Below are positions 4,879 through 31,279 of a DNA stretch of 34,936 nucleotides, piece after piece (positions within the stretch are counted from its first letter, which is position 1; each line of letters begins with the position of its first letter). The notes below the pieces were generated by a model. That model did not search any database. It was not told where the DNA came from and saw nothing but the letters and a program-made list of their open reading frames with translations. This DNA is from Candidatus Kaiserbacteria bacterium. Its GTDB lineage: Bacteria > Patescibacteriota > Minisyncoccia > Phycocordibacterales > UBA2100. Location of the stretch: assembly GCA_016432285.1 (NCBI GenBank), contig CP066682.1, forward strand, positions 81,026 through 115,961, written 5' to 3'. The translations under genes were made by a program, and so were the position numbers.

Positions 4879-5097
4879 AGGAATACTTTTAGATATAAAA
4901 ACTATTATTACTACTAGTGGTGTGGAAAGTGGGTAGAGCCGGTTTTTTCCTTATTCTGCGCGACAGAAGCGGAATGGGACATGGTGAGATCTCGGGGATA
5001 AGCGACGAGAATCGCTGGGGATTTCGTCGCCGTGGAAAAAAATTCCGTACTCAACACCACTCTCCCCTCCACTGTCCCCATCGTTATCCGGCGGCTG
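4879..5097. other. Candidate oriC segment (dnaA-dnaN intergenic): AT-rich unwinding-type stretch plus degenerate DnaA-box-like 9-mers
   Basis: Positions 4882-4917 contain only about 5 G/C in 36 nt, in a genome of >60% GC. Box-like 9-mers: TGTGGAAAG 4921-4929, CGGGGATAA 4993-5001 and CGTGGAAAA 5031-5039 (each 7/9 to TGTGGATAA), and TTATCCGGC 5084-5092 (6/9). Confidence 0.35.
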
Positions 5098-6444: not shown

Positions 6445-6633
6445 AGAGCGAAATGGCTTGCAGTCGAGAAAAGGAAACGAGAGATCAGCATGCGCACCAT
6501 AGCTCGGACATTATACGCGCCGCTTTTTGTATGCAAAGGCCGAGCTTCACGAAGGGCGGTGTTCACAACCTGTGGAGAGCATGGGGAAAAGCCGGCAGCG
6601 CGAGCAGGGGTTTGTTTTGGAGCGGGTTTCTAG

Positions 6634-6639
6634 TATAGT
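6634..6639 (+). promoter_or_regulatory. -10-like TATAGT, 6 nt before the rpmH ATG 6646
   Basis: Read directly; no SD in the spacer GCCGAG. Confidence 0.45.
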
Positions 6640-6645
6640 GCCGAG

Positions 6646-6780
6646 ATGAGACGGACCTACCAGCCCAAAAAGCGCAAACGCGCGCGGACGCATGGCTTTC
6701 GAAAGCGAAGTTCCACGACGAGCGGTCGTGCGCTTTTGGTGCGCCGACGCCGCAAGGGCCGCGCGCGGCTCTCGAGCTGA
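6646..6780 (+). CDS. rpmH: 50S ribosomal protein L34
   Basis: Hand translation gives [44 protein letters not shown], the classic L34 sequence. Below the ORF-track length cutoff. The TGA overlaps the rnpA ATG by 1 nt. Confidence 0.9.
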
Positions 6781-8409: not shown

Positions 8410-8970
8410 TCAGTAGGTAATGCCGCTGTTGATGTCTTGACCCGGAGTCGTTTCTTCGAGCGGCCCGCCGAAGGAACTCTCCGTGGGAGGCGTGGACGCG
8501 CTCTGCTGTTGCGTGGAGCCGGGCGCGGGGCGCAGGACGTCGATCCGAAGCTTCAAGATGTCGGGATTGATCTGGTTAAGAATGATCCAGATGCCAAGGA
8601 GGAGGAAGAGGCCCAGAAACGTCTCCCTGATATCTTCCCTCGCCTTCTCCTTTTTGCTCCAGAGATCGCTCGACATGTACAGGAATCCCGCCCACGCGAG
8701 CCGGAGCACGGCGAGAATCGCACCCGCGGCGATGGCGGCAAAAAAGAGCCTGTTGAGGAAGGTGCCCAAGTCGGAGGTATTGTAGAGATCGTTGAGCCGC
8801 GTCGTGTCCTTAAATTCCGCGAGCGGCACGAATCCGTACGGAGTCGCTTGGCCATAGTAGGTGCTGTCCACATCCGGGCTCGCCGCCGCCGCGGGCGTGG
8901 CCGTAAGCAGCAGCGCAAACGCGAGGGTGAGTCCGCAAAACACGAGCGAAGTGTGGAGCGTTTTTTTCAT
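8410..8970 (-). CDS. T4SS pilin-like (TrbC/VirB2-type) exported protein; last gene of the T4SS-like operon
   Basis: Preferred start ATG 8970 (MKKTLHTSLVFCGLTLAFALLLTATPAAAASP, a signal peptide), 1 nt after the upstream stop. The C-terminal half has two hydrophobic helices joined by a charged loop (FFAAIAAGAILAVLRLAWAGFLY...KKEKAREDIRETFLGLFLLLGIWIIL), which is the VirB2/TrbC-like topology. Confidence 0.5.
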   Translation of the reverse strand: MKKTLHTSLVFCGLTLAFALLLTATPAAAASPDVDSTYYGQATPYGFVPLAEFKDTTRLNDLYNTSDLGTFLNRLFFAAIAAGAILAVLRLAWAGFLYMSSDLWSKKEKAREDIRETFLGLFLLLGIWIILNQINPDILKLRIDVLRPAPGSTQQQSASTPPTESSFGGPLEETTPGQDINSGITY

Positions 8971-8971
8971 A

Positions 8972-10174
8972 CTACTGCTCGGCGACGCGAAGCACCCAGA
9001 ACGATTTGTCGATGGCATTCATAAATGCAATGTATCTGCCCTGCTCGTCGATTTGTACATTCTCCACATCGAGCAGTATATCTCCCGGCCCGTACAAAAG
9101 TTCCGCGCTGCCGCCGCTCACATCAACCCGCCAGAAAGAATCCGCAGTGTGCGCCTGCCCGCGCGCACGAAGGTCGAGGTACAGGGCGCCAGTCGGCCGC
9201 TGCGGTACGCCGCAAAAGGCGATCAATTGTACGCTCGGCGACCAGACGCATTTATCGGCGGTGGTGCGCACGGGCAGCGTTACCTCCGAGGCGGAAGCAT
9301 CAACGCGTGCGGAAAGCGTGAGGCTCGTCTCCGACTCGCCGATGAGTATCGCTGCGGACGAGGCGCGCGGCAGCACCGTAAGCCCCACGCCGCGGGCGAG
9401 CGGCGTGAGCGAGCCTGTCTCGTCGAGCGTGTACGCATATCCTTCCACTCCGCTTCCTGGATTTTGTGCGAGCACGATGCGACCGTCGGAGAGGGAACGC
9501 ACCTGCCAGCCGCTTATGGCAGACGAAAAGACATTCTTCTCCCCTGTGCCGTCCCACTTGGCGCGCACGCCGACGGCACCCGACGCCGTTTCGGTGATGG
9601 CGAAAATTTCCGAACCTGCTGCGTTGAAGGTAATCGCGTGGACGTCGTCGGGGAGGCGGAACCCCACGAACTCCGACGAGCTTGCGGTGATCGTGGCGAC
9701 GCTTGTCTCCACGCGCTCGCCCACGGTCTTCTCTATTATTTTTCCGTCGCGTGAGACGCTCGCTTCGTACACGCGCGGAACGAGCGTATTGCTGACGCGC
9801 GCGAGCGCACCAGTTTCCGGCTCCACGTCAAACACGTATCCGGTGGAGCGCTCTACGAAACGGAGCTTCGTCGTACTCGCGAGAAAGCCGAAACCGGCAG
9901 TCGGCGATTTGTTGATCTGGTAGAGCCGCGGGGGCGTGGTCGTGCCTTTTTCCCGGTCGAACACCGAAGAAATCGTCGAGACGATGTTGTTGTATGTGCT
10001 CCCCACCGCATCTCCAAAGGAGGGCGCACCGACTCCCGCACCCCTTCCCTCAAGCGCAGTGTCGATCTCTTTTTGCTGCGCGCGCAGGAAGTAGAACCAC
10101 GAGGCGAACGCGAGGAGCGTGAGCGCGATCGCCGCGACTCCTATATATATGAACGTGCGTGTCGAGAACTTCAT
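8972..10174 (-). CDS. Membrane-anchored protein with a beta-rich repetitive ectodomain (TolB/beta-propeller-like is a guess), T4SS-like operon
   Basis: Preferred start ATG 10174 (MKFSTRTFIYIGVAAIALTLLAFASWFYFL, a TM anchor), 4 nt after the upstream stop. The remainder is rich in short beta-strand-like repeats. No family recognised. Confidence 0.55.
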   Translation of the reverse strand: MKFSTRTFIYIGVAAIALTLLAFASWFYFLRAQQKEIDTALEGRGAGVGAPSFGDAVGSTYNNIVSTISSVFDREKGTTTPPRLYQINKSPTAGFGFLASTTKLRFVERSTGYVFDVEPETGALARVSNTLVPRVYEASVSRDGKIIEKTVGERVETSVATITASSSEFVGFRLPDDVHAITFNAAGSEIFAITETASGAVGVRAKWDGTGEKNVFSSAISGWQVRSLSDGRIVLAQNPGSGVEGYAYTLDETGSLTPLARGVGLTVLPRASSAAILIGESETSLTLSARVDASASEVTLPVRTTADKCVWSPSVQLIAFCGVPQRPTGALYLDLRARGQAHTADSFWRVDVSGGSAELLYGPGDILLDVENVQIDEQGRYIAFMNAIDKSFWVLRVAEQ

Positions 10175-10178
10175 GGAT

Positions 10179-11207
10179 TTACTCTGAGCCGCCGAACGGA
10201 TCGTTGAAGGTGCCCGCTTCGCCACCCCGGAGCGACACACCCCAGAGGCCGGCAGCGCTCAGGAAGAGGTTTCTGAACGACGAGAGATCGAGATCGATGC
10301 GCGCAAGACCACTCGAATTGGATGCGTCGATCGTGATCTTGTTGCGGAGCTTCGGATCGACGGGGATCTGCTGCCCGTTGACCTTCCACGCATAGTCGAG
10401 CGAGCTTTCGCCCGCCGCAGCGGCATCGGCAAAATACGGCACGGCGACGAAGGTCGTTTGCGTCTCCGCGAGATTCGTCTGCGTACCGAGCGCCTCGTGA
10501 TACAGAACCCCAAAGAGCGGGTGCTCACGATAGAGCGCGAGTATCGGTTCGACTGACGGGAGGCGGAGCACTTTCCGGGCGATGAGCGTACCGTCAGTAC
10601 TGCGCGCCTCGACGGAAATCTGGTCGACGCCAAAGAGGGGCGGCGAGTCGATCACTGCGCGCGCCTTGCCGCGTCCCGACACTGATTTCAGCACGGTGTC
10701 GTTGCGCTTCCATGTGTAGATCGTATCGGCGCTCGGGACGAGCGAGCCGTCGGGACGCGCGAGGCGCGCGATCGCCTGGAGGCGCACCTGCGTCCCCGCA
10801 GAAGGAAGCGCGCGGCCGCGGAAGAAGGGTGGCACGTACGAATCCGATTCCCACAGAAGGTCGATTTCAGTCGGCCGCACGAATGCCATCGCGCTCGCCG
10901 ATGCGCCGCCGTCACTCGCAACGATCTCGATCTGCGTTTCCGATCCGAGCTTTCCTGCCTGTACCGTAATGCTCGTCGTATTGCGCGCGCGCTCGGCTCC
11001 GTCGACGTACCACACGACCTCCGCCGCATCGAGATCGAGCAGCGTCGAATAAGCGGTGATCCGCACACTCTCGCGCGGAGCAGGATACTGCGGGGAAAGC
11101 GAGAGCGAGAGATCGGCCACGTCAAACGCGTTCGGGAGGACGATCTGCGCGTGTGCAGAGCCGGCGTACAAAAAAACCGCGAACGCGAGGAGTGCGGTGC
11201 GTCTCAT
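10179..11207 (-). CDS. Exported protein, unknown family, T4SS-like operon
   Basis: Signal peptide MRRTALLAFAVFLYAGSAHAQ. The ATG overlaps the virB4 stop (ATGA at 11204-11207). Confidence 0.55.
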   Translation of the reverse strand: MRRTALLAFAVFLYAGSAHAQIVLPNAFDVADLSLSLSPQYPAPRESVRITAYSTLLDLDAAEVVWYVDGAERARNTTSITVQAGKLGSETQIEIVASDGGASASAMAFVRPTEIDLLWESDSYVPPFFRGRALPSAGTQVRLQAIARLARPDGSLVPSADTIYTWKRNDTVLKSVSGRGKARAVIDSPPLFGVDQISVEARSTDGTLIARKVLRLPSVEPILALYREHPLFGVLYHEALGTQTNLAETQTTFVAVPYFADAAAAGESSLDYAWKVNGQQIPVDPKLRNKITIDASNSSGLARIDLDLSSFRNLFLSAAGLWGVSLRGGEAGTFNDPFGGSE

Positions 11208-13186
11208 ACCTCCCGCAGCGCGCTGCTGTTGAGGGCGCTCGCACCCACCGGTGCCGTGTCTTCGCCCGGCTTGTGCGAAGCAGCGGTAATCGCAAGGCTC
11301 TCCGCGGTGCCCGGCATCATCGGGTTGGCGGAGGGCCGCGGGATGCCGGCCGGCGTATCTCCCGGAAGCTGGCTCTTATTTTCGAGATCTGCTTTCGCTT
11401 TCTTGATCGCGAGAATCTGCGAAGGGTCGGAGGTGATGATCTGGTCTTCGGTGTACGAGGCGATCACCTTGATCGCGACGTGCTTGAGGCCAGCGAAGAA
11501 GATGCCCTCCCCGACGTCGGATTCGAGCAGTAGATACTTTTCCTCATCGGAGAGCTTAAATGTTTGCTGAACGAGATCGACTGACGTAGGTGATTGCCGC
11601 AGGAGGATCTGGATTGAAGAGTTGGTGATCATCGGAATGCCATAGGGAGAGTTGAGGAAGTCGGAGACGTCCTGCGTGATCGTGGAGATGCCAAGAAAGT
11701 ATTTGCGGCCGCGCTTCGCGATGCCGAAGAGGAACGACGCCGTATCTTCCGAGCGCATCATCCACCACGCCTCGTCGATCACGAGCAGTCGCTTACGGAG
11801 CTCTTTGCGCACCGTGTTCCAGATGTGGTGCGTGATGATGTACATCGCGACCGGCTTCAGGTCGTCTTCCATGTCGCGCACCGAGAAGACCACAAGCTTT
11901 TTGTTCATGTCGACGTTGGTGGGGCGGTTCATGAAGCCCGACCACGTACCCTTGGTGTATTTGCTCAGTCTTTGCACGAGGGACTCTGATCCTTCCATGC
12001 CGGAGAGCACGAGCTCGAAGTCGGAAAGAAGCGGCGGCTCGACCGATGCGAAGTTGGCGTCGGAGGTGATGTCTTTGAGGGCGTAGGTTTCGGTGATCGC
12101 CTTGTCGATGATGGCGTCTTCTTCCGGGGTGAGTCCGCCGAGCATGATGCGGAAGAGCCCGACGAGCGTGATGATGTTGTTGCGGAGCACGTCGGAAGGA
12201 TTTTCGTCCTCGCGCGGAATGGGGAGATCGAACGGATTAATGTGGTGCTCGGAAGAAAGCGAGATGTTGAAGTAGCGTCCGCCCACAGTCTCCGCGAGAT
12301 ATTCGTATTCGCGCTCCGGGTCAATCACGATGACCTCGGTATCGAACATGAGCGAGCGCAGAATCTCCAGCTTGGTCGTGTACGACTTGCCAGCACCAGA
12401 TTTGGCGAAGGTGACGGAGTTGTAGTTTTCGAGAGAGAATCGATCGAAGAGGATCAGCGAGGAGTTGTGACGGTTGATGCCGTAGAGGATGCCGCGATCC
12501 GACGTGAGGTCGAAGGAGATGAAGGGGAAGATTGATGAGAGCGGCGCGGAGTTGAGCTTCGTGTGCACGTCGAGCTCGTCGGTCCCCAGCGGAAGCGTCG
12601 AGCGAAAGCCTTGTTCCTGCTGGAAGAGCGCCGGCCGGATATACACGAGGCGCGACTCGAGAATCGATCTCACCTCGCTCTCTACTTTGTCGATCTCCTC
12701 GCGCGTGTTGCCGTAGATCGTGAGGTAGAGGCCGACTTCGAAGATGCGCTCTTGCGCCTGCTGGAGCGAGTCGCGCAGCTTTTCGAGGTCGGAGTAGGCG
12801 GTGTCGAGCATCGGGTCGCGCACCATACCCTTTTGCTCGCGTGTCGAGATCTGGCTCTGCACCTCCGCCACTTTTTTCTGGAACTTGCGGAGCATCTCGT
12901 TGGTGTCCATGGGGTGCACGAAGATCGAGATGTCGAGCACTTTGTCCATGTTGATGATCGGCGCAAACCAGCCGGTCGTCAGAAAGCGCGGGTACGAGAT
13001 CACGAAGAAGGTGCGCGCGATGCGCTCACCGAGATCGAGCTCGCGCGAGTTGACCTTGAGAGCGTGCGGCGCGATCACATCTTGCAAATCCAGCACGCCG
13101 CCCTCGTAAATCTCTTCCGGGAGTACTGGCAGCACCTCGGCGACCGGCGCCTTCTTGCCAAACGGGAGTAAGTCTTTGAGCGCCAT
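11204..13186 (-). CDS. virB4: VirB4/TrbE/PrgJ-family type IV secretion ATPase
   Basis: 660 aa. Walker A AKSGAGKSYTTK, Walker B RLLVIDEAWWMM and RKYFLGISTITQDVSDF. The N-terminal CagE/TrbE/VirB-type region is FFVISYPRFLTTGWFAPII...DISIFVHPMD. Confidence 0.9.
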   Translation of the reverse strand: MALKDLLPFGKKAPVAEVLPVLPEEIYEGGVLDLQDVIAPHALKVNSRELDLGERIARTFFVISYPRFLTTGWFAPIINMDKVLDISIFVHPMDTNEMLRKFQKKVAEVQSQISTREQKGMVRDPMLDTAYSDLEKLRDSLQQAQERIFEVGLYLTIYGNTREEIDKVESEVRSILESRLVYIRPALFQQEQGFRSTLPLGTDELDVHTKLNSAPLSSIFPFISFDLTSDRGILYGINRHNSSLILFDRFSLENYNSVTFAKSGAGKSYTTKLEILRSLMFDTEVIVIDPEREYEYLAETVGGRYFNISLSSEHHINPFDLPIPREDENPSDVLRNNIITLVGLFRIMLGGLTPEEDAIIDKAITETYALKDITSDANFASVEPPLLSDFELVLSGMEGSESLVQRLSKYTKGTWSGFMNRPTNVDMNKKLVVFSVRDMEDDLKPVAMYIITHHIWNTVRKELRKRLLVIDEAWWMMRSEDTASFLFGIAKRGRKYFLGISTITQDVSDFLNSPYGIPMITNSSIQILLRQSPTSVDLVQQTFKLSDEEKYLLLESDVGEGIFFAGLKHVAIKVIASYTEDQIITSDPSQILAIKKAKADLENKSQLPGDTPAGIPRPSANPMMPGTAESLAITAASHKPGEDTAPVGASALNSSALREV

Positions 13187-13189
13187 ACG

Positions 13190-13864
13190 TTATTGCTGCG
13201 AAAGCGCTTCCACCGGCATGGGCTTCCCCTGCTCGCCGGGGTTGAACATCTTGTACATGAGCTCGATCGCTTCCTCGGTGCCGAGCTGTACGGTGCGCAC
13301 GCCGGTGCGGATGAGGCCCTGCTGCACGATCGAGATGCGCTGCTCGAGCTGGGAGACCTGCTCCTCGAATGTTTTGTTGGCCTCGGCCGCGGTCGCCTTC
13401 TTTCTGTTCCACGGGAGCATTGAAGCGGGGCCGCTTGCTGCGACGGGCGCGAGTGCAGCCGAATACGGAACGACGACGAAAAAGTTTTTAGTCATGATGT
13501 TGGCCGCTTCAGTGAAACTCTTGATGAACTCGATGTATTCGCGGATCTGGATCCGCATGAGGTCGTCGAGCTGCTCCTTATAGGCGGCTTCGAGCGTGGC
13601 GACGTAGGGGCGGATGTCGAGCATGCGTGACTGCACGAAGATTTGCACGGTGAAGTCGAGCGAGTTGAGAAAGTTTTGGAACTGCACGATAAACGCAGTT
13701 TGCTCGTCCTCGGATTTGAGGGCGAAGTTGATCGAGGAAGCGAGCAGGATCGCGCGCATGCTGCCGTCTTTCATGACGACAACACCGTCGCGCACCTCGC
13801 GGATCGGGACGAACTCCTGCGTCGACTTCTTGCGCGTGCGCGCGTTTTGGAGGCGGGGAGGCAT
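13190..13864 (-). CDS. Soluble protein resembling the N-terminal domain of monoderm VirB4 proteins; unknown family
   Basis: 224 aa, stop-start coupled to both neighbours. STQEFVPIREVRDGVVVMKDGSMRAILLASSINFALKSEDEQTAFIVQFQNFLNSLDFTVQIFVQS parallels the entry segment of the adjacent VirB4. No Walker motifs. Confidence 0.5.
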   Translation of the reverse strand: MPPRLQNARTRKKSTQEFVPIREVRDGVVVMKDGSMRAILLASSINFALKSEDEQTAFIVQFQNFLNSLDFTVQIFVQSRMLDIRPYVATLEAAYKEQLDDLMRIQIREYIEFIKSFTEAANIMTKNFFVVVPYSAALAPVAASGPASMLPWNRKKATAAEANKTFEEQVSQLEQRISIVQQGLIRTGVRTVQLGTEEAIELMYKMFNPGEQGKPMPVEALSQQ

Positions 13865-13865
13865 A

Positions 13866-14390
13866 TTAGCTGAAGCGCTGCTGCTGGAGCGAGCGGTGCA
13901 CGAGGGCCTCCTGCGCGGTGCGGATCGGCATGATCACTCCCGCTTCCGCGCGGCGCTCGTTCTCGCTCGCAACTCCCGCCGCGATGCGCTCCTTGATGTC
14001 GAGGCTCCATGCGAGCTCGTGGAGCTTGCTGTCGGAGAGTTTTGGCACGTACACCGAGGCATCGCTCCCCGGCTCGGCGTGCGCGGCCACCGCCTTCTTG
14101 ACGCTTCCCTTCTGCGCGTTGTTCCACAGGTAGAGCTTGGAGCGCAACATATAGAAAAAAGCGTTTTCGAGCGCGACGATAAAGGGCCTACCGTTCCACT
14201 GCATGAAAGCGAGCGCCGCCGCGAGGCCGCCGACGCCCGCGATGAGGGGGCCCGCAAGCACGAGCGGGAGCGCACGCCACAAAAGGTATGCCGCGCCGAC
14301 TCCGCCGATCACGTAGACGAACTGTTTGAAGGTCAGCGGACCGAAAATTTTGTCCTCAACCTCGATGAACTGAGGAACCTGAAACTGCAT
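13866..14390 (-). CDS. prgI: PrgI family (VirB3-like) small membrane protein
   Basis: Preferred start ATG 14390: MQFQVPQFIEVEDKIFGPLTFKQFVYVIGGVGAAYLLW, followed by a second TM. This N-terminal pattern is the PrgI-family signature. Located immediately upstream of the VirB4 module, as in Gram-positive T4SS. Confidence 0.65.
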   Translation of the reverse strand: MQFQVPQFIEVEDKIFGPLTFKQFVYVIGGVGAAYLLWRALPLVLAGPLIAGVGGLAAALAFMQWNGRPFIVALENAFFYMLRSKLYLWNNAQKGSVKKAVAAHAEPGSDASVYVPKLSDSKLHELAWSLDIKERIAAGVASENERRAEAGVIMPIRTAQEALVHRSLQQQRFS

Positions 14391-14397
14391 ACACAAA

Positions 14398-15126
14398 TTA
14401 TATCAGCGCGGGAGCGTCCTCCTTTGCGAAAATTAGCGACTGGCTGCGCATCGGCGTCTCTTGCTCGTTCTTCAGCCAATCAGTAACAAACGATTCGAAG
14501 GACGTATGCGATGACCAGTATCCAGGTAGTGCGTCCATCGATACGATCGCCTTCTCCGGGCGGTCGATACCGAGGTAGTCGGGATAGCTTGACCATCGGA
14601 ATGATTGCAAGAACTCTTTGGCTGCTCGGAGATCACCGATACCCTCGGTTTTCCATGTCGGACGGATGAGCTGCACCGGATTGAGGTGAACGTAGGCTAT
14701 CAGGTAGGCGAGGTAGGTATCGGAATCCGCATGGATCGCCTTGTACTTACCCTGGAAAAGAGCACCCGACCGCTCGTATCTTGTATTGAAGTACATGGTG
14801 TATCCGGTCGAGATTTTTTGCATAAATTTCGCGACATCGCCCTCCTCGCTGCTTCGCACAATAAGATGAAAATGATTCGGCATAAGGGCGTAGGCGCACA
14901 CGTCGACTTTCTTTTCAACTGCTTTTTTCTCCTTATTTAGAGCCAAAAACTGGTACAAGGTCGAACCTTGTAATTTGAGGTCGACTGGCTTGCTGCCGTT
15001 GCAAGCATAGAGCAGCGCAAGAAAGCGCTCGTAATCCTTGGTGGACATGAAAATCGTCCTCTTTTCCGTGCCGCGGTTGTAGATATGGTAGAACTCGCCG
15101 GGCGCGATCTGCTCTCTTCTTCCCAT
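14398..15126 (-). CDS. IS200-like HUH/Y1 transposase (REP-associated tyrosine transposase-like)
   Basis: GEFYHIYNRGTEKRTIF, HUH motif MPNHFHLIV, and catalytic-Tyr region IAYVHLNPVQ. GC is visibly lower (about 50%) than in the flanking operon genes. Confidence 0.8.
   Translation of the reverse strand: MGRREQIAPGEFYHIYNRGTEKRTIFMSTKDYERFLALLYACNGSKPVDLKLQGSTLYQFLALNKEKKAVEKKVDVCAYALMPNHFHLIVRSSEEGDVAKFMQKISTGYTMYFNTRYERSGALFQGKYKAIHADSDTYLAYLIAYVHLNPVQLIRPTWKTEGIGDLRAAKEFLQSFRWSSYPDYLGIDRPEKAIVSMDALPGYWSSHTSFESFVTDWLKNEQETPMRSQSLIFAKEDAPALI
14954..14972. repeat. REP-like hairpin copy 1 (TACAAGGT-CGA-ACCTTGTA), inside the transposase CDS
   Basis: Perfect 8-bp stem with a 3-nt loop. The 25-nt identity CTGGTACAAGGTCGAACCTTGTAAT (14950-14974) is shared with copy 3. 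Looser similarity extends over 14937-14974 vs 15190-15227. Confidence 0.85.
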
Positions 15127-15132
15127 CCACCC

Positions 15133-15138
15133 ATCTTA
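15133..15138 (-). promoter_or_regulatory. -10-like TAAGAT, 6 nt before the transposase ATG 15126, overlapping the foot of hairpin copy 2
   Basis: The reverse strand reads CCTTGTAAGATGGGTGGATG. The first two bases of TAAGAT are the last two of the hairpin. Confidence 0.4.
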
Positions 15139-15155
15139 CAAGGTCGAACCTTGTA
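15137..15155. repeat. REP-like hairpin copy 2
   Basis: The same 19-nt TACAAGGTCGAACCTTGTA, with different flanks (CT..GATTT). Confidence 0.85.
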
Positions 15156-15206
15156 GATTTTGGGAAAATGGCCGCCCTGTGGATAAGCTTTTAAGCCATA
15201 TCCTGG

Positions 15207-15225
15207 TACAAGGTCGAACCTTGTA
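15207..15225. repeat. REP-like hairpin copy 3
   Basis: The same 19-nt core. The 25-nt identity to copy 1 spans 15203-15227. It sits directly after the stop of the 222-aa gene. Confidence 0.85.
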
Positions 15226-15226
15226 A

Positions 15227-15895
15227 TCAGGCGGGGGGTTCGCGGTAAGGGTCGTCGTGAACGTCGGTGCGAGTGGTGGAGGGCTCGCCGTGCTTGTACG
15301 CGCCGGAAGACGGCAGCGGGCGGGCAGCTTTTTCTGTCGGCGCTGGCGCGGGCGGGGTGGCGGGAGCGACCGGGGGCGCAGCCGGAGCCGAATCGAGCTT
15401 CGGGGGCGTGGGCTCGGCTGGGGTTGCGGTGATCGGTGCGGGAGTCGCGGTTGCCGGGGGTGTTGCCGGGGGTGCGGCAGGTACCACGCTTTCTTCGGAG
15501 GCCGAAAGAATCTGCCGCCGCGCCGCCTCCTCGCCGCTTACCTCCTCCGCTTTTGCCTCCGGGTGTTCCAACTGCCGCTCAAGCTCCTCGCGGATTGGCT
15601 CAAATACCTCTTTCGAAATATCGCCAGCGAGCGCGGCAGCCGTTTTTTCGTCGACGCCCACTTCTCGTCCGATATTTGCTTGGAGTTCGTTGATTTCCGA
15701 GAAGCCCAGCAGCGTGAGCATTACCTCGTTTTCGAGTCGCTCCCACTGGTCGAGGTGCAGCTTGTGCGTGTCGGCCATCTTGCGGAGTAAGTTTTCAACG
15801 TCGGCGGACTCGATCGCGTCGCGAACGACTTTCGGAAGCTCCTTGAGTCGCTCCGCTATTTTCTTGTCGAGGTCCTCGTCAAAAATTGGAGTCAT
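15227..15895 (-). CDS. Acidic helical N-domain + Pro/Ala/Thr-rich tail protein, no TM, unknown family (T4SS-like operon)
   Basis: 222 aa, coupled to the upstream stop (15898). The C-terminal half, PAAPPATPPATATPAPITATPAEPTPP...APATPPAPAP, ends in DDPYREPPA. Confidence 0.55.
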   Translation of the reverse strand: MTPIFDEDLDKKIAERLKELPKVVRDAIESADVENLLRKMADTHKLHLDQWERLENEVMLTLLGFSEINELQANIGREVGVDEKTAAALAGDISKEVFEPIREELERQLEHPEAKAEEVSGEEAARRQILSASEESVVPAAPPATPPATATPAPITATPAEPTPPKLDSAPAAPPVAPATPPAPAPTEKAARPLPSSGAYKHGEPSTTRTDVHDDPYREPPA

Positions 15896-15897
15896 AT

Positions 15898-18393
15898 TTA
15901 ATGGTCGTCATCTACCTCTTCGTCGACTGCTCGTGGATTTTCTGAGCGCAGCTGGGTGAGCGCGGCTCGCAGGCGGCTTGTCCCAATCCTACCCCGCGCT
16001 TTGCCGCGCACTTCTCCCGCGATGTGTTTTCCCTCGCCGGTTACCGTGTAAAAGACGCCGGCCGATTTTTTTCCTATGTACTCTGCCGCACCCTCGATAC
16101 CGCGTTGCTTCGATGCGACTTTGTTCTTACCCGCTTCGTTCGCTAGATTTTCCGTCTCCTTGTCGAATGCGTTGAGATTGCTTGTGGCGCTGCTGAGTTT
16201 TTGCTCCGCTTCTGTGAGATTTTTTTTCAGGTAATCAACCGTTTTTTGCGCTGATTGCACTTTCCTGTCCTCAGCCGCCTCCTGCGTCTTGCCTTCCTGC
16301 ACATGTGTATCAATCTGGCGCAATATGTCCGTGCGCTCCTCCTCTGTCCGCGCTTGCGAGAGATTTGCTTGCAGCGGCAAAATTCTTTCCTGCGTCGTTC
16401 TCCGGAGGGCCTGCTTGGCCCTTTCGGCTTCTGTTTGCATCCTCATCAGTTCCCTGCGTGCGGATGCCATCTGTCCGCCTTCGTCACGTTCGGCGCGTGC
16501 TTTCTCGGCCTCGTGTTCCGCTTTTGCGGATTCGTACGCGCGGCGGCGTTGCTGGCCCTCCTCGCTTGCTGAGCGCTCGCGGTATGTTTGCTGGCGTGCC
16601 TCGTCTTCGGTTTTCCTTCTTTCTGAAGGAGAGACGTCGAGTGCCTTGGATCGCTCTTCGCCCAACTTGATCCGCTCTTCGATTCCGTGCATGTAACCAG
16701 CTGCGGTACCCTTCGGTCGCTGACCCGCCGCGAGAGCAGAGAGTCCGATCGTTTTGGCAACTGACTTCGCCGTGTCCGAGTCGGCGATGTTGAAGCCCGA
16801 TTCCGCAATGTTTTTGGCTCGGCCTGCCCACAGCGCGTAACTGCCGGCGCGTTTTTCAAATTCTGAAGCTTCCTTCCTTTTAGCTTCCGCCTGCTCGATT
16901 CGGCCCGCCTTCTCGTCTCTAAGCGCTAATGTTCGTAGCTCACCCGCACGGCTTCGCTGTGCTTTGCCATCACTCAGCAGGGATTCACGTATTCCGTACG
17001 CCGCTCTCCCCGCTGTCTGGCGCATGACAGGTGCCACCCCGAATCTCCATGCGAGGCCCGGTGCGGCGAAGGCACCGTACTTGGCAAGACCTCGCAGCGC
17101 GGTCGAAACACCGCCGAATCCACTGATTGATGTCGCGAGATTGTTGGCGGCGTAGAAGGAGCCGTAGAGGAGCCCGAGAATGACGACGTACGCGAGCAGC
17201 GCTTCAAGATTCAGCGGCTGGGTTGGATTTGAAATCAAGGAGCCGAGCGTACCGCTTTTCGTGTTGACGCTGACCGCATCGGCGATGACGAGCGTGGCCC
17301 AGAGGAGTCCCATGAGTATCGGAGCGAGAAATGCGCTCTTCAGGAGCGACTTCCACCACGTGGTCCAACCAATATCGATTGTGTGGTGCGGTATGAGCCA
17401 GCTCGCAAAGGCCAGCGCTGAAGTGAGCATGATAAATACGAGCAACACGGCGCGCGTAACGAGAATGTAACACCCGTACAGCAGGACAAGCGCCGCGGCG
17501 GTGAAGAGTGTAGCCGTCACGAGGCCGAAGAGGAGCGCTGTCCAACCGCTCGCTGTTGCGTAGTTGTCCTCGCGGATGCCGAAGGACGCCGTCTTGAGTG
17601 CTTCGTACGTTTTGCCAACACCCTCGAGGCCGGCGAATTTTATGAATTGGCCGGCGATCCCCTTTTGCGAAAAGTCCCCCGTGAATTCGACACCATTCTG
17701 CCCTGCCCCCGAGCTCGTCGAGTAGAGCTCGCTCGCCTTGTAGAACTGCATGGCAACGAAGTTCGACGTGTCGATGATCACCTTGCTGAAAAGGAGGCTG
17801 AAATTGAGGAGCACGGCCACGATGAGGATGCGCGCGATCATTTTCTTCTCGCCGAAATCCTTTACTCCGAGGATGATGTTGATCGCGATAAAGACGAACA
17901 TGCCGATGATCACGATGTTGGCGATGTCGCGTATCGCACTCCAACCGATGTCGATCCCCTCGCGCACACCGGGCGTGAAAAGCGCACCGAATTGTATGAT
18001 TGTATGGTCGACTAAAAAGTTGAAGAATAGAGCCGCCACGGCAAGAAGCCATGCCGACATCGCGATCAGGGCAGATCCGATAAGCACGCTCAGCGTCCGT
18101 CCCCAACAGACGACATCGAATAGGCTCCAATACGAATCACATGTGGACGGCTGCTTCGCGTAATCCTTTGCAGCGTATGAGCCAGGCGGCCGACACGAAC
18201 CGCTGCCGACGTTGCCCGTGTCACTCACATCCGCGGGTGTCCACTCACCACCGGCGCTGGTGCACGCTTCTTGTGTCGTGGCCGCCCCTATCGCTGCCGC
18301 GTCTGGGGTCTTCTGCGCATGTGTGGTGAGGGGCGTCGCAGAGGTCCCGAGGATCAGGAGCATGAGCGAGAGCGCGAGAGCGGTTCGTTTCAT
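15898..18393 (-). CDS. Polytopic membrane protein, VirB6/TrbL-like, with a long charged coiled-coil C-terminal tail
   Basis: Preferred start ATG 18393 (MKRTALALSLMLLILGTSATPLTTHAQ, a signal peptide). About 8 or more hydrophobic helices in the first ~470 aa. The last ~350 aa are K/E/R/A/Q-rich (AEAKRKEASEFEKRAG...AEHEAEKARAERDEGG...). Confidence 0.5.
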   Translation of the reverse strand: MKRTALALSLMLLILGTSATPLTTHAQKTPDAAAIGAATTQEACTSAGGEWTPADVSDTGNVGSGSCRPPGSYAAKDYAKQPSTCDSYWSLFDVVCWGRTLSVLIGSALIAMSAWLLAVAALFFNFLVDHTIIQFGALFTPGVREGIDIGWSAIRDIANIVIIGMFVFIAINIILGVKDFGEKKMIARILIVAVLLNFSLLFSKVIIDTSNFVAMQFYKASELYSTSSGAGQNGVEFTGDFSQKGIAGQFIKFAGLEGVGKTYEALKTASFGIREDNYATASGWTALLFGLVTATLFTAAALVLLYGCYILVTRAVLLVFIMLTSALAFASWLIPHHTIDIGWTTWWKSLLKSAFLAPILMGLLWATLVIADAVSVNTKSGTLGSLISNPTQPLNLEALLAYVVILGLLYGSFYAANNLATSISGFGGVSTALRGLAKYGAFAAPGLAWRFGVAPVMRQTAGRAAYGIRESLLSDGKAQRSRAGELRTLALRDEKAGRIEQAEAKRKEASEFEKRAGSYALWAGRAKNIAESGFNIADSDTAKSVAKTIGLSALAAGQRPKGTAAGYMHGIEERIKLGEERSKALDVSPSERRKTEDEARQQTYRERSASEEGQQRRRAYESAKAEHEAEKARAERDEGGQMASARRELMRMQTEAERAKQALRRTTQERILPLQANLSQARTEEERTDILRQIDTHVQEGKTQEAAEDRKVQSAQKTVDYLKKNLTEAEQKLSSATSNLNAFDKETENLANEAGKNKVASKQRGIEGAAEYIGKKSAGVFYTVTGEGKHIAGEVRGKARGRIGTSRLRAALTQLRSENPRAVDEEVDDDH

Positions 18394-18394
18394 A

Positions 18395-20086
18395 TTATTT
18401 CTTCCAGCGCTCCGCCCACTGGCGGATGACATCGGGGTTGTTGACGTTGCACCAGCCGACGTTCGGGTCCGAAGAGTCGCCCCACGCCTTTGCGGTGTCC
18501 GTCTTCAGCGTGTTCATCGCTTCGTCGACGTCTTTCTTTTGCTCGCCCGCGCGCTGCGCGTCGTACTGCGTGTGCAGCAGCTTTTGGGCGACGAGTGAGT
18601 CGAGCTGCTGGAGCGCGAGCCGCTGCGCGTTCAGCGAGGCGGTGTTGGTCACGCTTGCGATGAGCTGCTCCACGAGCTGCACCGCTTTCTGCGCGGTCTT
18701 CACGTTTTCCTCCGCAATCTCGGAGAGCGACTTGATCTGCGAGTCGATCACCTGCTGCGAAAAGGCGAGCGTGCTCGTGGACGTGCGGATTTTCGTCTCG
18801 CTCAACTGGAACGGCACGCAGGTTTCCAAGGGCGGATTCGTCGTGGTGTCGGTGGAGCACTCGCCTTTGGCGGCGTACGCGCGCGCTTTCGGCTCGATCA
18901 GGGCCCAACATGCTTTCTCGGTGTTCTTAAGATCTGTCCCAGTTTGCGTGAGCTTCGTGGCGATGCCGTTGGTCGAGGCGAGGTAACTACCTTCCACCTC
19001 ACGCGATTTGTTGAGGATCGAGAGCGCGGCATTGACCGCCGCACCCACGACTCCCTGCGAAGACTCTTTGGCCACCTGGTCGAGGTACGACGGCTGCCCG
19101 CCGATGCTCTGGCGGAAACCAGCGAGACCGCGCGTGTCGCTCAAGGCCTGCGTCGTTACGCCCGAAAAGAGCGCGCCGATCATCTGCCCGATGTCGTTGG
19201 CGCTTTCAAGCTGGCGCACCGACGAGCCCAGGATTTGCTGGAACGATTCTTGTACGACCGAAGCAGGTGTCAGCACGTCATCTGAGAGCGGATCCGCTTC
19301 GTTGTTGGTGACCGGGTAGAAACCACGTCCCCAGTCCCACATCATGCGTGCGTACTCCCGCGACTGCGCGTTGCGCGACTCCGCGAGGTTGTCGAATCCG
19401 GCGGCGGTGAACACAGGGTTGCATCCGAAGGGGTTGGTTTGTGCAAGGATCGCCCCGATCACGTCGTCGCTTTTATTTTCGAGCGATTTCTCGATGTCCT
19501 TGAACGCGCACGAAAGGATGGATTCGGGCTGGCGAGAGCGTGTCTGGTATGCGCGCGCTGCGTACTTCTGGATCTCTTTGCGGAACGCAGGGACGAGCGC
19601 ATCGAGCGTGCCGTCGGTAAGAATCGAGTATTCGGATTTGTCGGAAATCGTGCGGAGCTCTTCGAGCGGATCCACCACGTATCGCTTGTTACCGTCTCTC
19701 CCGGTCTCCACGCTCTCGACGTTGCGCTTCAAGAGCGCCGACGCGGCGTTCTCGCGAAGGCGCACCTGCAAGGGCCGGAGCACGCATTCCTTGTAGGTGA
19801 TGATGCCCGTGTTGAGCGTAATCGCCGCGTCGTTGACGGGCACGTACACGCCGCCGATCGCCGCCTGCGTGCCGGCACTCATGTTGACGCCGCCGATCGT
19901 GTTGCATCCGAAGATGCCTTCGTTTTGAAACTGATACTTTGCGGCCTCCGAGGGAGGCGTCTCTTCCGTATTCTCGGTAGTCTGCGTTTCGGCATTTTCT
20001 TCCTGCGCTGCGACGAACGAGAGAGATCCGAAAAGAATCGCCAGGAGCAGCGCGAGGATCGACAGGTTTTTTGCGACCGATGTCAT
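18395..20086 (-). CDS. Exported 563-aa protein, Cys-containing, helical C-terminus, unknown family (T4SS-like operon)
   Basis: Signal peptide MTSVAKNLSILALLLAILFGSLSFVAAQ. ATGA overlap with the upstream gene at 20083-20086. Confidence 0.55.
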   Translation of the reverse strand: MTSVAKNLSILALLLAILFGSLSFVAAQEENAETQTTENTEETPPSEAAKYQFQNEGIFGCNTIGGVNMSAGTQAAIGGVYVPVNDAAITLNTGIITYKECVLRPLQVRLRENAASALLKRNVESVETGRDGNKRYVVDPLEELRTISDKSEYSILTDGTLDALVPAFRKEIQKYAARAYQTRSRQPESILSCAFKDIEKSLENKSDDVIGAILAQTNPFGCNPVFTAAGFDNLAESRNAQSREYARMMWDWGRGFYPVTNNEADPLSDDVLTPASVVQESFQQILGSSVRQLESANDIGQMIGALFSGVTTQALSDTRGLAGFRQSIGGQPSYLDQVAKESSQGVVGAAVNAALSILNKSREVEGSYLASTNGIATKLTQTGTDLKNTEKACWALIEPKARAYAAKGECSTDTTTNPPLETCVPFQLSETKIRTSTSTLAFSQQVIDSQIKSLSEIAEENVKTAQKAVQLVEQLIASVTNTASLNAQRLALQQLDSLVAQKLLHTQYDAQRAGEQKKDVDEAMNTLKTDTAKAWGDSSDPNVGWCNVNNPDVIRQWAERWKK

Positions 20087-30997: not shown

Positions 30998-31203
30998 TTA
31001 AGTTCGTTGTTCTCGAACATCCGAACGAACTCTTTGAGATTCTTTTCTTCAATGTAGTATCGGCTACCAGACCGCTTCCCTGTTTTAATCGGCTTGAGAA
31101 TATGCTGGTAGTAATCAACGTACTTGCGAATCGTCTTGTAGCTCGTGTGCCAGTAAATAAGATTCTGCTTTTGGATTTGTGCCAATGAGTAAAGCTTTTT
31201 CAT
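30991..31203 (-). CDS. Small HTH DNA-binding protein (excisionase/RDF-like guess)
   Basis: 70 aa. YSLAQIQKQNLIYWHTSYKTIRKYV...GSRYYIEEKNLKEFV resembles the excisionase-family HTH layout. Located at the extreme end of the element. Confidence 0.4.
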   Translation of the reverse strand: MKKLYSLAQIQKQNLIYWHTSYKTIRKYVDYYQHILKPIKTGKRSGSRYYIEEKNLKEFVRMFENNELNF

Positions 31204-31279
31204 AGTGTTGAAGTGAGACGAGCGAATCCACGATCCTTTCTCGTCCTAGTAATCGGGTAAGTAATGGTATCTATTATCT

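What the first reader, a model, noticed from the sequence alone, without database searches (positions are those of the whole stretch)
14398..15227. IS200-like Y1 transposase with three perfect REP-like hairpins, inserted cleanly inside the T4SS-like operon
Seen: an HUH/Y1 transposase gene (MPNHFHLIV; YVHLNPV) of visibly lower GC lies between the 222-aa gene and the prgI-like gene. It has the same orientation as the operon.

The 19-nt sequence TACAAGGTCGAACCTTGTA (8-bp stem, CGA loop) occurs three times: at 14954-14972, 15137-15155 and 15207-15225. Copy 3 begins right after the upstream gene's stop. Copy 2 contributes the first two bases of the transposase -10-like TAAGAT. The transposase stop is only 7 nt from the prgI-like start.

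Established: IS200/IS605 and RAYT-type Y1 transposases act on single-stranded DNA hairpins (REP/subterminal palindromes).

Inference: this is a RAYT-like gene with its cognate REP cluster, sitting in a position where operon read-through must pass two hairpins. The insertion may therefore modulate expression of the downstream PrgI-VirB4-pilin half of the machine.
Basis: partly seen in the sequence, partly recalled or inferred. Interest (0 to 1): 0.7.

Follow-up and report, generated by a model that had tools for sequence, protein, structure and literature searches.

The report
Old hairpin-nuclease gene inside secretion operon
A gene for a DNA-hairpin-cutting enzyme (a relative of REP-associated transposases) sits with three perfect copies of its 19-base hairpin, one of them inside its own coding sequence, at a fixed place in a secretion-system gene cluster of an ultra-small (CPR) bacterium; it is an old, conserved resident rather than a fresh insertion, and it belongs to a phylum-wide family in which gene and hairpins co-evolve.

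Summary
TACAAGGTCGAACCTTGTA occurs three times exactly (0 expected), next to and inside a 242-aa HUH/Y1 gene (Pfam Y1_Tnp; best fold match the E. coli RAYT-REP complex 4ER8). Across 85 homologues from Patescibacteria, a 5' hairpin, an in-frame internal hairpin and a 3' hairpin recur. They share one stem within a locus and differ between loci. Codons at the motif are frozen (TTG 94% versus 13% elsewhere). The same 19-mer is dispersed in about 45 CPR assemblies, including as in-frame 21-nt insertions in LigA, TyrRS, TopA and UvrD. The "clean insertion" reading is only partly supported. Five diverged orthologues (60-69% identity, synonymous sites saturated, dN/dS 0.09 for the closest pair) occupy the identical slot between the p222 gene and prgI. 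All lack the 3' hairpin. Closely related operons have the slot empty or filled by a bAvd-like gene. prgI keeps its own TGnTATAAT promoter, so read-through control is unnecessary. Best explanation: an anciently captured, immobilised RAYT-like nuclease with its cognate hairpins, probably self-regulated. It is a new variant of a known kind.

The parts
14398..15126 (-). Y1/HUH (RAYT-like) nuclease gene, 242 aa. HUH motif H85-F86-H87, catalytic Tyr145. The C-terminal tail (aa 221-242) is predicted disordered and runs into the prgI promoter.
   Evidence: invariant H85, H87, Y145; AF2 model, pLDDT 76.9; tail below 40; best PDB match 4ER8, E 4.7e-5.
14954..14972 (-). Hairpin copy 1, inside the Y1 coding sequence. 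It is read in frame as L52-Q-G-S-T-L-Y58 (TTA CAA GGT TCG ACC TTG TAC); the loop is the Ser codon.
   Evidence: The motif codons are frozen family-wide, and the internal stem equals the 5' stem in 40 of 54 loci (permutation mean 15.7).
15137..15155 (-). Hairpin copy 2, the proximal 5' hairpin. It ends 10 nt before the Y1 ATG, and its last two bases are the first two of the -10-like hexamer.
   Evidence: invariant block in 5 orthologues.
15207..15225 (-). Hairpin copy 3, the distal 5' hairpin. It starts 1 nt after the stop codon of the 222-aa gene and marks the left edge of the inserted segment relative to empty-site operons.
15178..15186 (-). TTATCCACA (the DnaA-box consensus) between the two 5' hairpins, 60 nt before the Y1 ATG. 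It is the only perfect match in the window.
   Evidence: It lies at -60/-61 with 0-1 mismatch in all 5 T4SS-embedded orthologues, and at -60 in distant members L083, L106 and L146.
15133..15138 (-). -10-like hexamer TAAGAT, 6 nt upstream of the Y1 ATG. Probable promoter for a leaderless Y1 mRNA.
14397..14405 (-). TGATATAAT, an extended -10 of prgI, 6 nt before the prgI ATG. It overlaps the last Y1 codons and the Y1 stop (CTG ATA TAA T).
   Evidence: It is present in all 5 Y1-bearing operons and in the empty-site operons L163 (TGATATAAT) and L161 (TGCTATACT).
14410..15226 (-). Approximate extent of the segment present here but absent from the closest Y1-less operon (L161). It runs from 1 nt after the p222 stop to just before GCGCTGATATAAT.
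   Evidence: comparison of filled and empty sites.
13866..14390 (-). PrgI/VirB3-like gene, the immediate downstream neighbour.
15227..15895 (-). 222-aa gene with no family assignment, the immediate upstream neighbour. It is conserved in all related operons.

Best explanation
The locus is an anciently acquired and now immobilised member of a Patescibacteria-wide family of RAYT-like Y1 (HUH) single-strand DNA nucleases, together with its cognate 19-21-nt perfect hairpins.

Shown:
- The enzyme has the RAYT/IS200 fold and an intact HUH + Tyr active site.
- Family members typically carry the same hairpin three times: just upstream of the promoter/start, in frame at codons ~52-58, and at the stop codon.
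- The three copies keep the same stem within a locus while stems differ between loci.
- The same hairpin is scattered through CPR genomes, between genes and as 21-nt in-frame insertions in essential genes.
- The window's gene belongs to a subclade that has sat between the p222 gene and prgI of an origin-proximal T4SS-like cluster since before five lineages diverged. The subclade has lost the 3' hairpin, reads into the prgI promoter, and is under purifying selection.

Inferred:
- The protein binds these hairpins when they form in single-stranded DNA. It nicks and rejoins beside them, which spreads, flips and homogenises hairpin copies.
- Without a 3' hairpin, the gene itself can no longer move as a unit.
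- The proximal 5' hairpin abuts the -10 of a leaderless promoter, and the internal hairpin lies in the transcript and in the gene body. Binding of the protein to its own gene therefore most likely limits its own expression or activity.
- Its position in the T4SS cluster reflects a permissive intergenic slot rather than a role in secretion. prgI-virB4 is transcribed from its own promoter.
For: Identity:
- Pfam Y1_Tnp, 39 bits against a cutoff of 23.
- H85, H87 and Y145 are invariant in 15 homologues.
- AF2 model pTM 0.78. The best and only significant PDB match is 4ER8, the RAYT bound to a REP hairpin. IS608, ISDra2 and IS200 TnpA follow.

Cognate hairpins:
- 5' hairpin in 80/84 genes, internal in 56/85, 3' in 70/79.
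- Internal stem equals 5' stem in 40/54 loci (permutation mean 15.7, max 23). Internal equals 3' in 33/48 (mean 10.6). 5' equals 3' in 53/67 (mean 11.0).
- Independent stem types are each repeated in one locus: CCCGAGGT, TACAGAGGT, GCGAAGGA, CCAAGGG, AGCAAGGA.
- Codons at QGxTL: CAA 100% versus 69% elsewhere, GGT 84 versus 27, ACC 90 versus 22, TTG 94 versus 13. Fisher p ranges from 1e-7 to 2e-35.
- Distant solo hairpins match the local Y1 stem type in 7 of 44 cases, against 1.0 expected.

Dispersal:
- 82 exact copies in 73 loci of about 45 assemblies. All but about 5 are named Patescibacteria.
- In-frame copies in UvrD, LigA, TyrRS, TGT, TopA and PheT.
- An exact 7-residue insertion in LigA relative to solved structures.

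Old resident:
- Identical synteny in L074/L154-157, L158, L159 and L160.
- The five genes form a clade. dN/dS is 0.09 for L074 versus L158. Other pairs have pS 0.80-0.90 and pN 0.21-0.28.
- GC tracks each host.
- No 3' hairpin in any of the five.

Promoters.
Against: - No biochemical evidence exists for binding or cleavage.
- The hairpin lacks the 5' GTAG tag and the imperfect stem that E. coli RAYT requires (PMC3479197). The NCBIfam RAYT model is below its cutoff, 41 against 80 bits.
- Copy number of the exact 19-mer is low, 1-12 per assembly. None occurs elsewhere in this 35-kb window, so genome-wide activity in the source organism is unproven.
- The permutation tests do not correct for shared ancestry.
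- In the L074/L158 lineage the internal hairpin has decayed to 6 bp, with a mismatch in L158. It is therefore not indispensable.
- About a third of family members lack an internal hairpin.
- Autoregulation is inferred only from position.
- Y1 presence is patchy on the operon tree. This needs either several losses or transfer by homologous recombination.
Confidence: 0.6

Rival explanations
1. The internal hairpin has no function of its own. It is one more in-frame insertion of the mobile hairpin, like those in LigA or TyrRS. It happened to land in the nuclease gene and is kept similar to its neighbours by short-patch gene conversion or enzyme-driven replacement. The rest of the best explanation (an immobilised RAYT-like gene) stands.
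For: - The same hairpin sits in frame in many unrelated essential genes.
- It lies in a family-specific insertion between helix 29-42 and strand 74-81, outside the Pfam core.
- About a third of members lack it, and it has decayed in L074/L158.
- Loop flips are common: 21 flipped against 54 same. This fits copy replacement.
Against: - It is retained at the same codon position in most of a family whose members share only 45-69% identity.
- Independent stem types are matched in all three positions.
- A perfect 8-bp stem persists in WIN, L159 and L160 although synonymous sites are saturated.
Confidence: 0.22
2. The hairpins act mainly as RNA or transcription signals (terminator, attenuator, RNA-stability or processing sites) that tune expression across the T4SS cluster. 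The Y1 gene is incidental.
For: - Copy 3 directly follows the p222 stop.
- Copy 1 followed by CCAGTTTTTG was flagged as terminator-like.
- In the general family the 3' hairpin overlaps the stop codon.
Against: - No U-run follows copies 2 and 3. The T-run after copy 1 is not conserved in orthologues.
- The scan found 4 terminator-like sites against 2.7 expected.
- prgI has its own conserved promoter, with or without Y1.
- Loop orientation relative to the gene flips in about a quarter of copies.
- Stems covary with the Y1 lineage, not with the host operon.
- There is no Rfam match.
Confidence: 0.08
3. It is an active IS200/IS605-type insertion sequence that recently transposed into the operon.
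For: - Y1_Tnp domain.
- Lower GC than the neighbours.
- The slot is empty in the closest operon relative, L161.
Against: - No right-end hairpin.
- Five orthologues occupy the same site, with saturated synonymous divergence and a congruent L074+L158 pairing.
- The GC offset is the same in all hosts and tracks host GC.
- The ORF is fused into the prgI promoter.
- The protein is 242 aa with a RAYT-like extension and best matches 4ER8.
Confidence: 0.05
4. The Y1 enzyme is an unconventional relaxase for the CPR T4SS and the hairpins are its oriT. It nicks at the hairpin and pilots single-stranded DNA through the channel.
For: - Relaxases are HUH enzymes that nick beside an inverted repeat (established knowledge).
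- The gene is conserved inside the cluster in five lineages.
Against: - The gene is absent from four closely related, otherwise intact operons.
- None of about 80 general-family loci had T4SS genes nearby.
- The hairpins are scattered genome-wide and lie inside essential genes.
- No coupling protein was identified in the window.
Confidence: 0.04

Closest known systems
RAYT (REP-associated tyrosine transposase, TnpA-REP) with REP/REPIN sequences of Proteobacteria (Nunvar 2010, PMC2817692; Messing 2012, PMC3479197; PDB 4ER8)
   Same: - HUH + Tyr single-strand nuclease fold. The best structural match is 4ER8.
- The gene is accompanied by short palindromic hairpins that coevolve with it.
- Hairpins are also dispersed in the genome, sometimes as inverted pairs.
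- The gene is chromosomal, syntenic and under purifying selection, like a domesticated gene.
   Different: - The hairpin is a perfect 8-9-bp palindrome with a 3-nt loop. It has no 5' GTAG/CGTC tag and no mismatch.
- Copy number is low, 1-12 exact copies per assembly, against more than 100 for REPs.
- Copies occur in frame inside essential genes, so they are not extragenic.
- A cognate copy lies inside the nuclease's own coding sequence.
- The same 19-mer is shared across classes of a phylum instead of being species-specific.
- The window's gene has hairpins only upstream and inside, all in one orientation.
- The NCBIfam RAYT model is below its cutoff.
IS200/IS605 insertion sequences (IS200, IS608, ISDra2 TnpA)
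   Same: - Y1_Tnp Pfam domain and fold.
- Subterminal hairpins at both ends of the gene in the general family. The promoter lies in the left end.
   Different: - The two ends carry the same perfect hairpin rather than distinct imperfect ones.
- The protein is 220-240 aa with an extra helical C-terminal domain.
- The window's copy lacks a right end and is fixed in place.
Rickettsia palindromic elements (RPEs) inserted in frame in protein-coding genes (own knowledge; mentioned in PMC1779305 and PMC10969869)
   Same: A palindromic repeat that is tolerated in frame within essential protein-coding genes and translated as an extra peptide.
   Different: - RPEs are roughly 100-150 bp (own knowledge) and have no known cognate enzyme.
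- Here the unit is 21 nt (7 codons), and a cognate Y1 gene carries one itself.
Patescibacteria T4SS homologous to monoderm conjugation machinery (PMC12102498)
   Same: The host cluster matches that description: PrgI/VirB3, split TraC-like + VirB4 ATPase, and T4SS pilin. It is chromosomal, lies near dnaA, and has no known relaxase.
   Different: That study does not mention any transposase (0 occurrences). The Y1 gene is an occasional passenger of one Kaiserbacteria-like subgroup, not a component of the system.

Membership tests
HUH Y1 transposase superfamily (Pfam PF01797) | HUH metal-binding motif and catalytic tyrosine on the following helix | tested here: met
   H85-F86-H87 and Y145 are present and invariant in 15 homologues. 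Pfam scores 39 bits against a cutoff of 23.
HUH Y1 transposase superfamily (Pfam PF01797) | The fold of IS200/IS605 TnpA and RAYT | tested here: met
   AF2 model pLDDT 76.9, pTM 0.78. Foldseek: 4ER8 at E 4.7e-5, prob 1.0. Chains from 2A6M, 2VIC, 2VJV, 2XM3, 2XQC and 2F4F score prob 0.92-1.0. A sequence profile search against PDB found nothing at E <= 0.01.
RAYT/REP system | [quoted passage not shown] | tested here: not met
   The window has two copies upstream, one inside the CDS and none downstream, all in the same orientation. The general family is flanked on both sides (the 5' stem equals the 3' stem in 53/67 loci), but orientation is mixed.
RAYT/REP system | RAYT and its REPs coevolve | tested here: met
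   The stem type is shared within loci and differs between loci. Rare-type solo hairpins match the Y1 on the same contig in 7 of 44 cases, against 1.0 expected.
RAYT/REP system | The REP carries a conserved 5' GTAG (or CGTC) tetranucleotide and an imperfect stem (PMC3479197, PMC3733652) | tested here: not met
   Stems are perfect. Flanks of 81 copies show only a ninth base pair (T at -1 in 58%, A at +19 in 56%) and no GTAG.
RAYT/REP system | Cognate REPs are abundant (>100 per genome) and extragenic | tested here: not met
   The exact 19-mer occurs 1-12 times per assembly. About 14 copies are in frame in long ORFs. The source genome beyond the window could not be examined.
RAYT/REP system | NCBIfam NF047646 REP_Tyr_transpos equivalog score | tested here: not met
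   41.4 bits against a cutoff of 80.
IS200/IS605 insertion sequence | Left-end and right-end subterminal hairpins bracket tnpA | tested here: not met
   No hairpin lies at or after the stop in the window or in the four orthologues. One is present in 70/79 general-family members.
IS200/IS605 insertion sequence | Several identical copies per genome at unrelated sites | not testable with these tools
   Only 35 kb of the source genome is available. The five orthologues are all at one site.
Conjugative relaxase / oriT | Consistent association with the T4SS it serves | tested here: not met
   It is absent from L161-L164 operons, and no T4SS genes lie near about 80 general-family loci.
Conjugative relaxase / oriT | Match to a MOB relaxase family | not tested
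   No MOB profile library was on hand. Pfam reports only Y1_Tnp.

The most novel reading that the evidence does not exclude
Patescibacteria harbour a phylum-wide mobile-hairpin system that has not been described. A RAYT-like Y1 nuclease family spreads, flips and homogenises a 21-nt perfect hairpin. The hairpin is written in frame into essential genes (LigA, TyrRS, TopA, UvrD and others) and into the nuclease's own coding sequence. There the in-gene copy serves as a self-recognition site that limits the enzyme. The T4SS-embedded copy in this window is the immobilised keeper gene of such a system. A more radical variant, that it doubles as the missing relaxase of the CPR T4SS, is not excluded but is unlikely (about 0.04).
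Probability: 0.3. Interest if true: 0.8.

Novelty: new variant of a known kind. Interest (0 to 1): 0.62.

Why it matters
RAYT/REP systems are known almost only from Proteobacteria, and how RAYTs act on REPs in vivo is still unresolved. This family offers a minimal version: a 19-21-nt perfect hairpin, present in few copies, in very small genomes. It also has two unusual properties that make the question testable.

- **A cognate hairpin inside the nuclease gene.** It covaries with the flanking copies, which gives a built-in genetic handle on recognition and self-regulation.
- **Hairpin copies inserted in frame into essential genes.** Loop flips between orthologous sites record hairpin turnover.

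For CPR biology, the result shows that streamlined genomes tolerate and maintain a selfish or domesticated DNA-hairpin system. It also clarifies that the Y1 gene seen in some T4SS clusters is a passenger, not evidence of recent mobility or of a regulatory switch. If the analysis is wrong and the gene is an ordinary IS, the finding is routine.

Tried and rejected
1. **C-terminal domain as a DnaA-domain-IV-like HTH**, which would bind the conserved TTATCCACA. Pfam at E <= 10 finds nothing in aa 143-242. hhalign against the window's own DnaA C-terminus gives probability 0.13%. Rejected.
2. **Rfam** at E <= 1 over 13500-16000: no match.
3. **PADLOC and PHROGs** for Y1, p222 and p844: no match. A defence-system or phage origin is not supported.
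4. **Exact 19-mer in IMG/VR viral contigs:** 0 hits.
5. **Sequence-profile search of PDB:** no hit. Only the fold comparison worked.
6. **GC skew to place the origin** and decide which strand is the lagging-strand template: uninformative at this scale. No strand-exposure argument is made.
7. **Sigma-70 -35/-10 consensus scan:** 0 sites. The promoters proposed here are extended -10 or -10-only and rest on conservation, not on that scan.
9. **Literature searches for RAYT/REPIN in CPR** returned only noise or one unrelated mention. Absence from the held library is not proof that the system is undescribed.
10. **The T-run after the internal hairpin as an attenuator:** not conserved in orthologues.
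Full report
**1. Observation**

The 19-mer TACAAGGTCGAACCTTGTA occurs at 14954, 15137 and 15207 on the + strand. Each copy is exact, and none of 100 shuffles contains a match. No further copy of the core AAGGTNNNACCTT, at up to 1 mismatch, exists in the 34.9-kb window. As single-stranded DNA it forms an 8-bp stem with a 3-nt loop (dG -5.9 kcal/mol, z about -5).

The ORF 14398..15126 (minus strand, 242 aa) hits Pfam Y1_Tnp at 39 bits against a cutoff of 23. Only residues 66-147 are covered. The NCBIfam RAYT equivalog model scores 41 bits, below its cutoff of 80.

Upstream is a 222-aa gene with no family. Downstream are a PrgI-family gene, a TraC-like 224-aa protein and a 660-aa VirB4-type ATPase. 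All the spacing statements hold: 1 nt after the upstream stop, TA shared with TAAGAT, and 7 nt to the prgI ATG. GC is 51.0% in the gene against 57.6% in the window.

Copy 1 is inside the coding sequence, and there is no copy downstream of the gene.

**2. The internal copy is a conserved nucleic-acid element**

On the coding strand, copy 1 reads TTA CAA GGT TCG ACC TTG TAC, which is L52-Q-G-S-T-L-Y58. In 15 homologues Q53 is nearly invariant and G54, T56 and L57 are invariant. The one variable residue (S/R) is the loop codon.

In 50 homologues that have QGxTL, codon choice at the motif is far more fixed than for the same amino acids elsewhere in the same genes:

| Residue | Codon | At the motif | Elsewhere in the same genes |
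|---|---|---|---|
| Q | CAA | 100% | 69% |
| G | GGT | 84% | 27% |
| T | ACC | 90% | 22% |
| L | TTG | 94% | 13% |

Fisher p values range from 1e-7 to 2e-35. Homologues whose peptide differs (RGSTS, RGLTS, EGGSF) have compensating stems such as CCCGAGGT/ACCTCGGG. Selection therefore acts on the hairpin, not on the peptide.

**3. Family architecture**

The protein search found 2902 relatives, annotated where named as Patescibacteria transposases. I obtained DNA for 85 distinct genes: 80 metagenome loci, 6 loci from the genome scan, and the orthologue loci. Hairpin positions are as follows:

| Position | Genes with a perfect hairpin |
|---|---|
| Ending about 7-30 nt before the start codon | 80/84 |
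| Codons 41-70 | 56/85 |
| Overlapping the last codons or just after the stop | 70/79 |

Stems match within a locus far more often than after permuting loci:

| Comparison | Observed | Permutation mean | Maximum in 2000 permutations |
|---|---|---|---|
| Internal = 5' | 40/54 | 15.7 | 23 |
| Internal = 3' | 33/48 | 10.6 | 19 |
| 5' = 3' | 53/67 | 11.0 | 19 |

The permutation does not correct for relatedness. However, at least eight distinct stem types are each repeated two to four times within their own locus.

Loop orientation of the flanking copies relative to the internal copy is the same in 54, flipped in 21 and different in 6.

A TAnnnT hexamer, very often TATAAT or TATACT and often preceded by TGn, starts 10-16 nt before the start codon in 76/85 genes. 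The family therefore appears to be transcribed with no leader or a very short one, from a promoter that begins where the 5' hairpin ends.

**4. The hairpin outside the gene**

The exact 19-mer occurs 82 times in 73 loci of about 45 species-representative assemblies. These are named Paceibacterota, Kaiser-, Nomura-, Taylor-, Harrison-, Lloyd- and Saccharibacteria. There are only about five other or unnamed hits, and roughly four hits are expected by chance in 596 Gb (the chance figure is my arithmetic). Counts per assembly are 1-12.

Only 6 of these loci have a Y1 gene within the fetched stretch, and there the hairpin abuts the gene. The flanks show no conservation beyond a ninth base pair and no GTAG tag. 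Several copies form inverted pairs 20-50 nt apart.

About 14 copies lie deep inside long ORFs. They are always in frame, read as x-T-R-S-N-L-V, T-R-F-D-L-V (loop flipped) or Q-G-S-T-L-Y. The hosts I tested are UvrD, NAD-dependent DNA ligase, TyrRS, TGT, topoisomerase I and PheT. Orthologous pairs from different MAGs carry the hairpin at the same site.

Against solved LigA structures, the CPR protein has exactly seven extra residues at that point. This is a 21-nt insertion. TyrRS shows a five-residue gap.

On contigs that carry a Y1 gene with a rare stem type, distant solo hairpins share that type in 7 of 44 cases. The permuted mean is 1.0 and the maximum is 5.

**5. Not a recent insertion**

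The four closest homologues for which context is available are P0002 (= L074, L154-157), P0008, P0009 and P0013. They share 61-69% identity with the window's gene by BLASTP and 61-65% over the pairwise alignment, and they come from different samples. All lie between the p222 homologue and prgI in the same gene order, with the Y1 stop 7-8 nt before the prgI start.

The five genes form a clade apart from the ~219-aa general family. L074 and L158 are sisters both in the Y1 tree and in all the operon-protein trees. For that pair dN/dS is 0.09. Every other pair has pS 0.80-0.90 (saturated) with pN 0.21-0.28.

In all five hosts Y1 is 5-9 GC points below its locus while tracking the host: 51 to 43% as the locus goes from 58 to 48%. 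The offset therefore reflects composition, not recent arrival.

All five share derived features:

- two 5' hairpins;
- TTATCCACA (0-1 mismatch) at -60/-61;
- a TAnnAT hexamer 6 nt before the ATG;
- no 3' hairpin;
- a C-terminal tail that ends in CTG-[GA]TA-TAA-T.

The tail is predicted disordered, with pLDDT below 40.

**6. Some relatives lack it**

Four operons found through PrgI homologues have no Y1. L161 has a 73-nt gap between the called genes and L163 a 42-nt gap. L162 and L164 carry a 116-126-aa 23S_rRNA_IVP/bAvd-like gene, flanked by inverted repeats, in the same slot.

L161 is the window's closest operon relative: p563 77%, PrgI 75%, VirB4N 82% and VirB4C 95.5% identity. It pairs with the window in three of the five trees. 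Y1-bearing and Y1-less operons are thus interleaved. The simplest reading is one old gain followed by several losses. Exchange by homologous recombination within the conserved cluster is the alternative.

Relative to L161, the extra segment runs from 1 nt after the p222 stop (15226) to just before GCGCTGATATAAT (about 14410).

**7. prgI has its own promoter**

TGATATAAT lies 6 nt before the prgI ATG (14397-14405, minus strand). The same arrangement is found in all five Y1-bearing operons and in both empty-site operons: TGATATAAT in L163 and TGCTATACT in L161. It is absent from the two bAvd-occupied operons. The Y1 ORF simply terminates on the TAA of that TATAAT. Expression of prgI-virB4 therefore need not depend on read-through across the hairpins.

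**8. Fold and context**

The AF2 model (pLDDT 76.9, pTM 0.78) places the hairpin-encoded residues in a loop and at the start of a helix. They lie within an insertion between helix 29-42 and strand 74-81. The only significant PDB match is 4ER8, the E. coli RAYT bound to a REP hairpin (E 4.7e-5). IS608, ISDra2 and IS200 TnpA follow.

The window also holds dnaN, dnaA, rpmH and a T4SS pilin. The cluster is therefore origin-proximal, as described for Patescibacteria T4SS in PMC12102498. That paper also reports that most such clusters lack a relaxase.

**9. Mechanism**

Shown: a RAYT-fold HUH/Tyr enzyme; cognate hairpins that covary with it; hairpins that behave as 21-nt insertable units; and a fixed, selected gene copy without a right end.

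Inferred from the biochemistry of RAYT and IS200/IS605 enzymes (PMC3479197): the protein recognises the hairpin in single-stranded DNA and nicks and rejoins next to it. This would account for the dispersal, the loop flips and the concerted change of copies.

The proximal 5' hairpin touches the -10 of the gene's own promoter, and a third copy lies within the gene. The most likely role of these copies is self-limitation of the enzyme. This step is not tested.

**10. Comparison and novelty**

The system works like a RAYT/REP pair but fails several defining features of that family:

- no flanking by inverted REPs in this window;
- no GTAG tag and no imperfect stem;
- low copy number;
- copies that are not extragenic;
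- a score below the NCBIfam cutoff.

It also fails the IS200/IS605 criteria in this window, because there is no right end. I found no description of it in the searchable literature. That is not proof of novelty. I classify it as a new variant of a known kind.

Noticed in passing
L027/L066 (LigA), L028/L047 (TyrRS), L029/L052 (TGT), L001 and L038 (UvrD-like), L039 (TopA), L063 (PheT), L010 (aminotransferase-like): The exact 19-mer lies in frame inside essential housekeeping genes of CPR genomes. It is read as x-TRSNLV, TRFDLV (loop flipped) or QGSTLY. Orthologous genes from different MAGs carry it at the same site, sometimes with the loop flipped. In LigA it is an exact 7-residue (21-nt) insertion relative to solved structures.
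   Followed up: partly
window 15178-15186 (minus strand); L074, L158, L159, L160 at -60/-61; L083, L106, L146 at -60: TTATCCACA, the DnaA-box consensus, sits at a fixed distance of 60-61 nt from the Y1 start in all five T4SS-embedded orthologues and in a few distant family members. In L106 it is part of an extended hairpin stem. It is the only perfect DnaA box in the window, about 8.7 kb from dnaA. The Y1 C-terminal domain is not recognisably DnaA-like.
   Followed up: partly
window 14388-14405 (minus strand); same position in L074, L158-L161, L163: prgI is preceded by TGnTATAAT (TGCTATACT in L161), then 6-7 nt, then ATG, with no Shine-Dalgarno sequence. This implies a leaderless prgI-virB4 transcript. 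The motif is conserved whether or not Y1 occupies the slot.
   Followed up: partly
L162 3595-3945 and 5285-5638; L164 3585-3965: In related operons, the slot between the p222 gene and prgI holds a small 23S_rRNA_IVP/bAvd-like four-helix-bundle gene flanked by inverted repeats. In L162 a second slot, between the TraC-like and VirB4 genes, holds another. The T4SS cluster's intergenic gaps seem to be landing sites for small selfish genes.
   Followed up: no
window 3787-6780 and 8410-20086: dnaN, dnaA and a divergent rpmH lie 2-4 kb from the end of the T4SS-like cluster. The cluster is on the strand opposite to rpmH. GC skew in the window does not reveal the origin.
   Followed up: partly
window ~31000-34936: A block with much lower GC (0.42-0.43 against 0.58-0.62) encodes a 587-aa large serine recombinase (31280..33043) and a protein with weak Phage_rep_O/HTH matches (33807..34520). 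It looks like an integrated mobile element and is a better candidate for recent acquisition than the Y1 gene.
   Followed up: no
window 11204-13864; all related operons: VirB4 is split into a 224-aa TraC-like N-terminal protein and a 660-aa ATPase in the window and in every related operon examined. The split is conserved, not a frameshift artefact.
   Followed up: no
L003, L013, L020, L044, L059 (inverted pairs); L053, L056 (direct pairs): Some dispersed hairpins occur as pairs 20-50 nt apart, in inverted or direct orientation. The inverted pairs are reminiscent of REPIN doublets.
   Followed up: no
L119/L120 at +208 to +298 after the Y1 stop; L114, L146: Hairpins of other stem types, such as CCCGAGGT-taa and GCGGCAAGGT-taa, occur near a Y1 gene that has a different cognate stem. 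Several hairpin families may coexist in one genome.
   Followed up: no
window 14954-14982 (minus strand): The internal hairpin followed by CCAGTTTTTG was flagged as terminator-like inside the Y1 coding sequence. The T-run is not conserved in the orthologues.
   Followed up: yes
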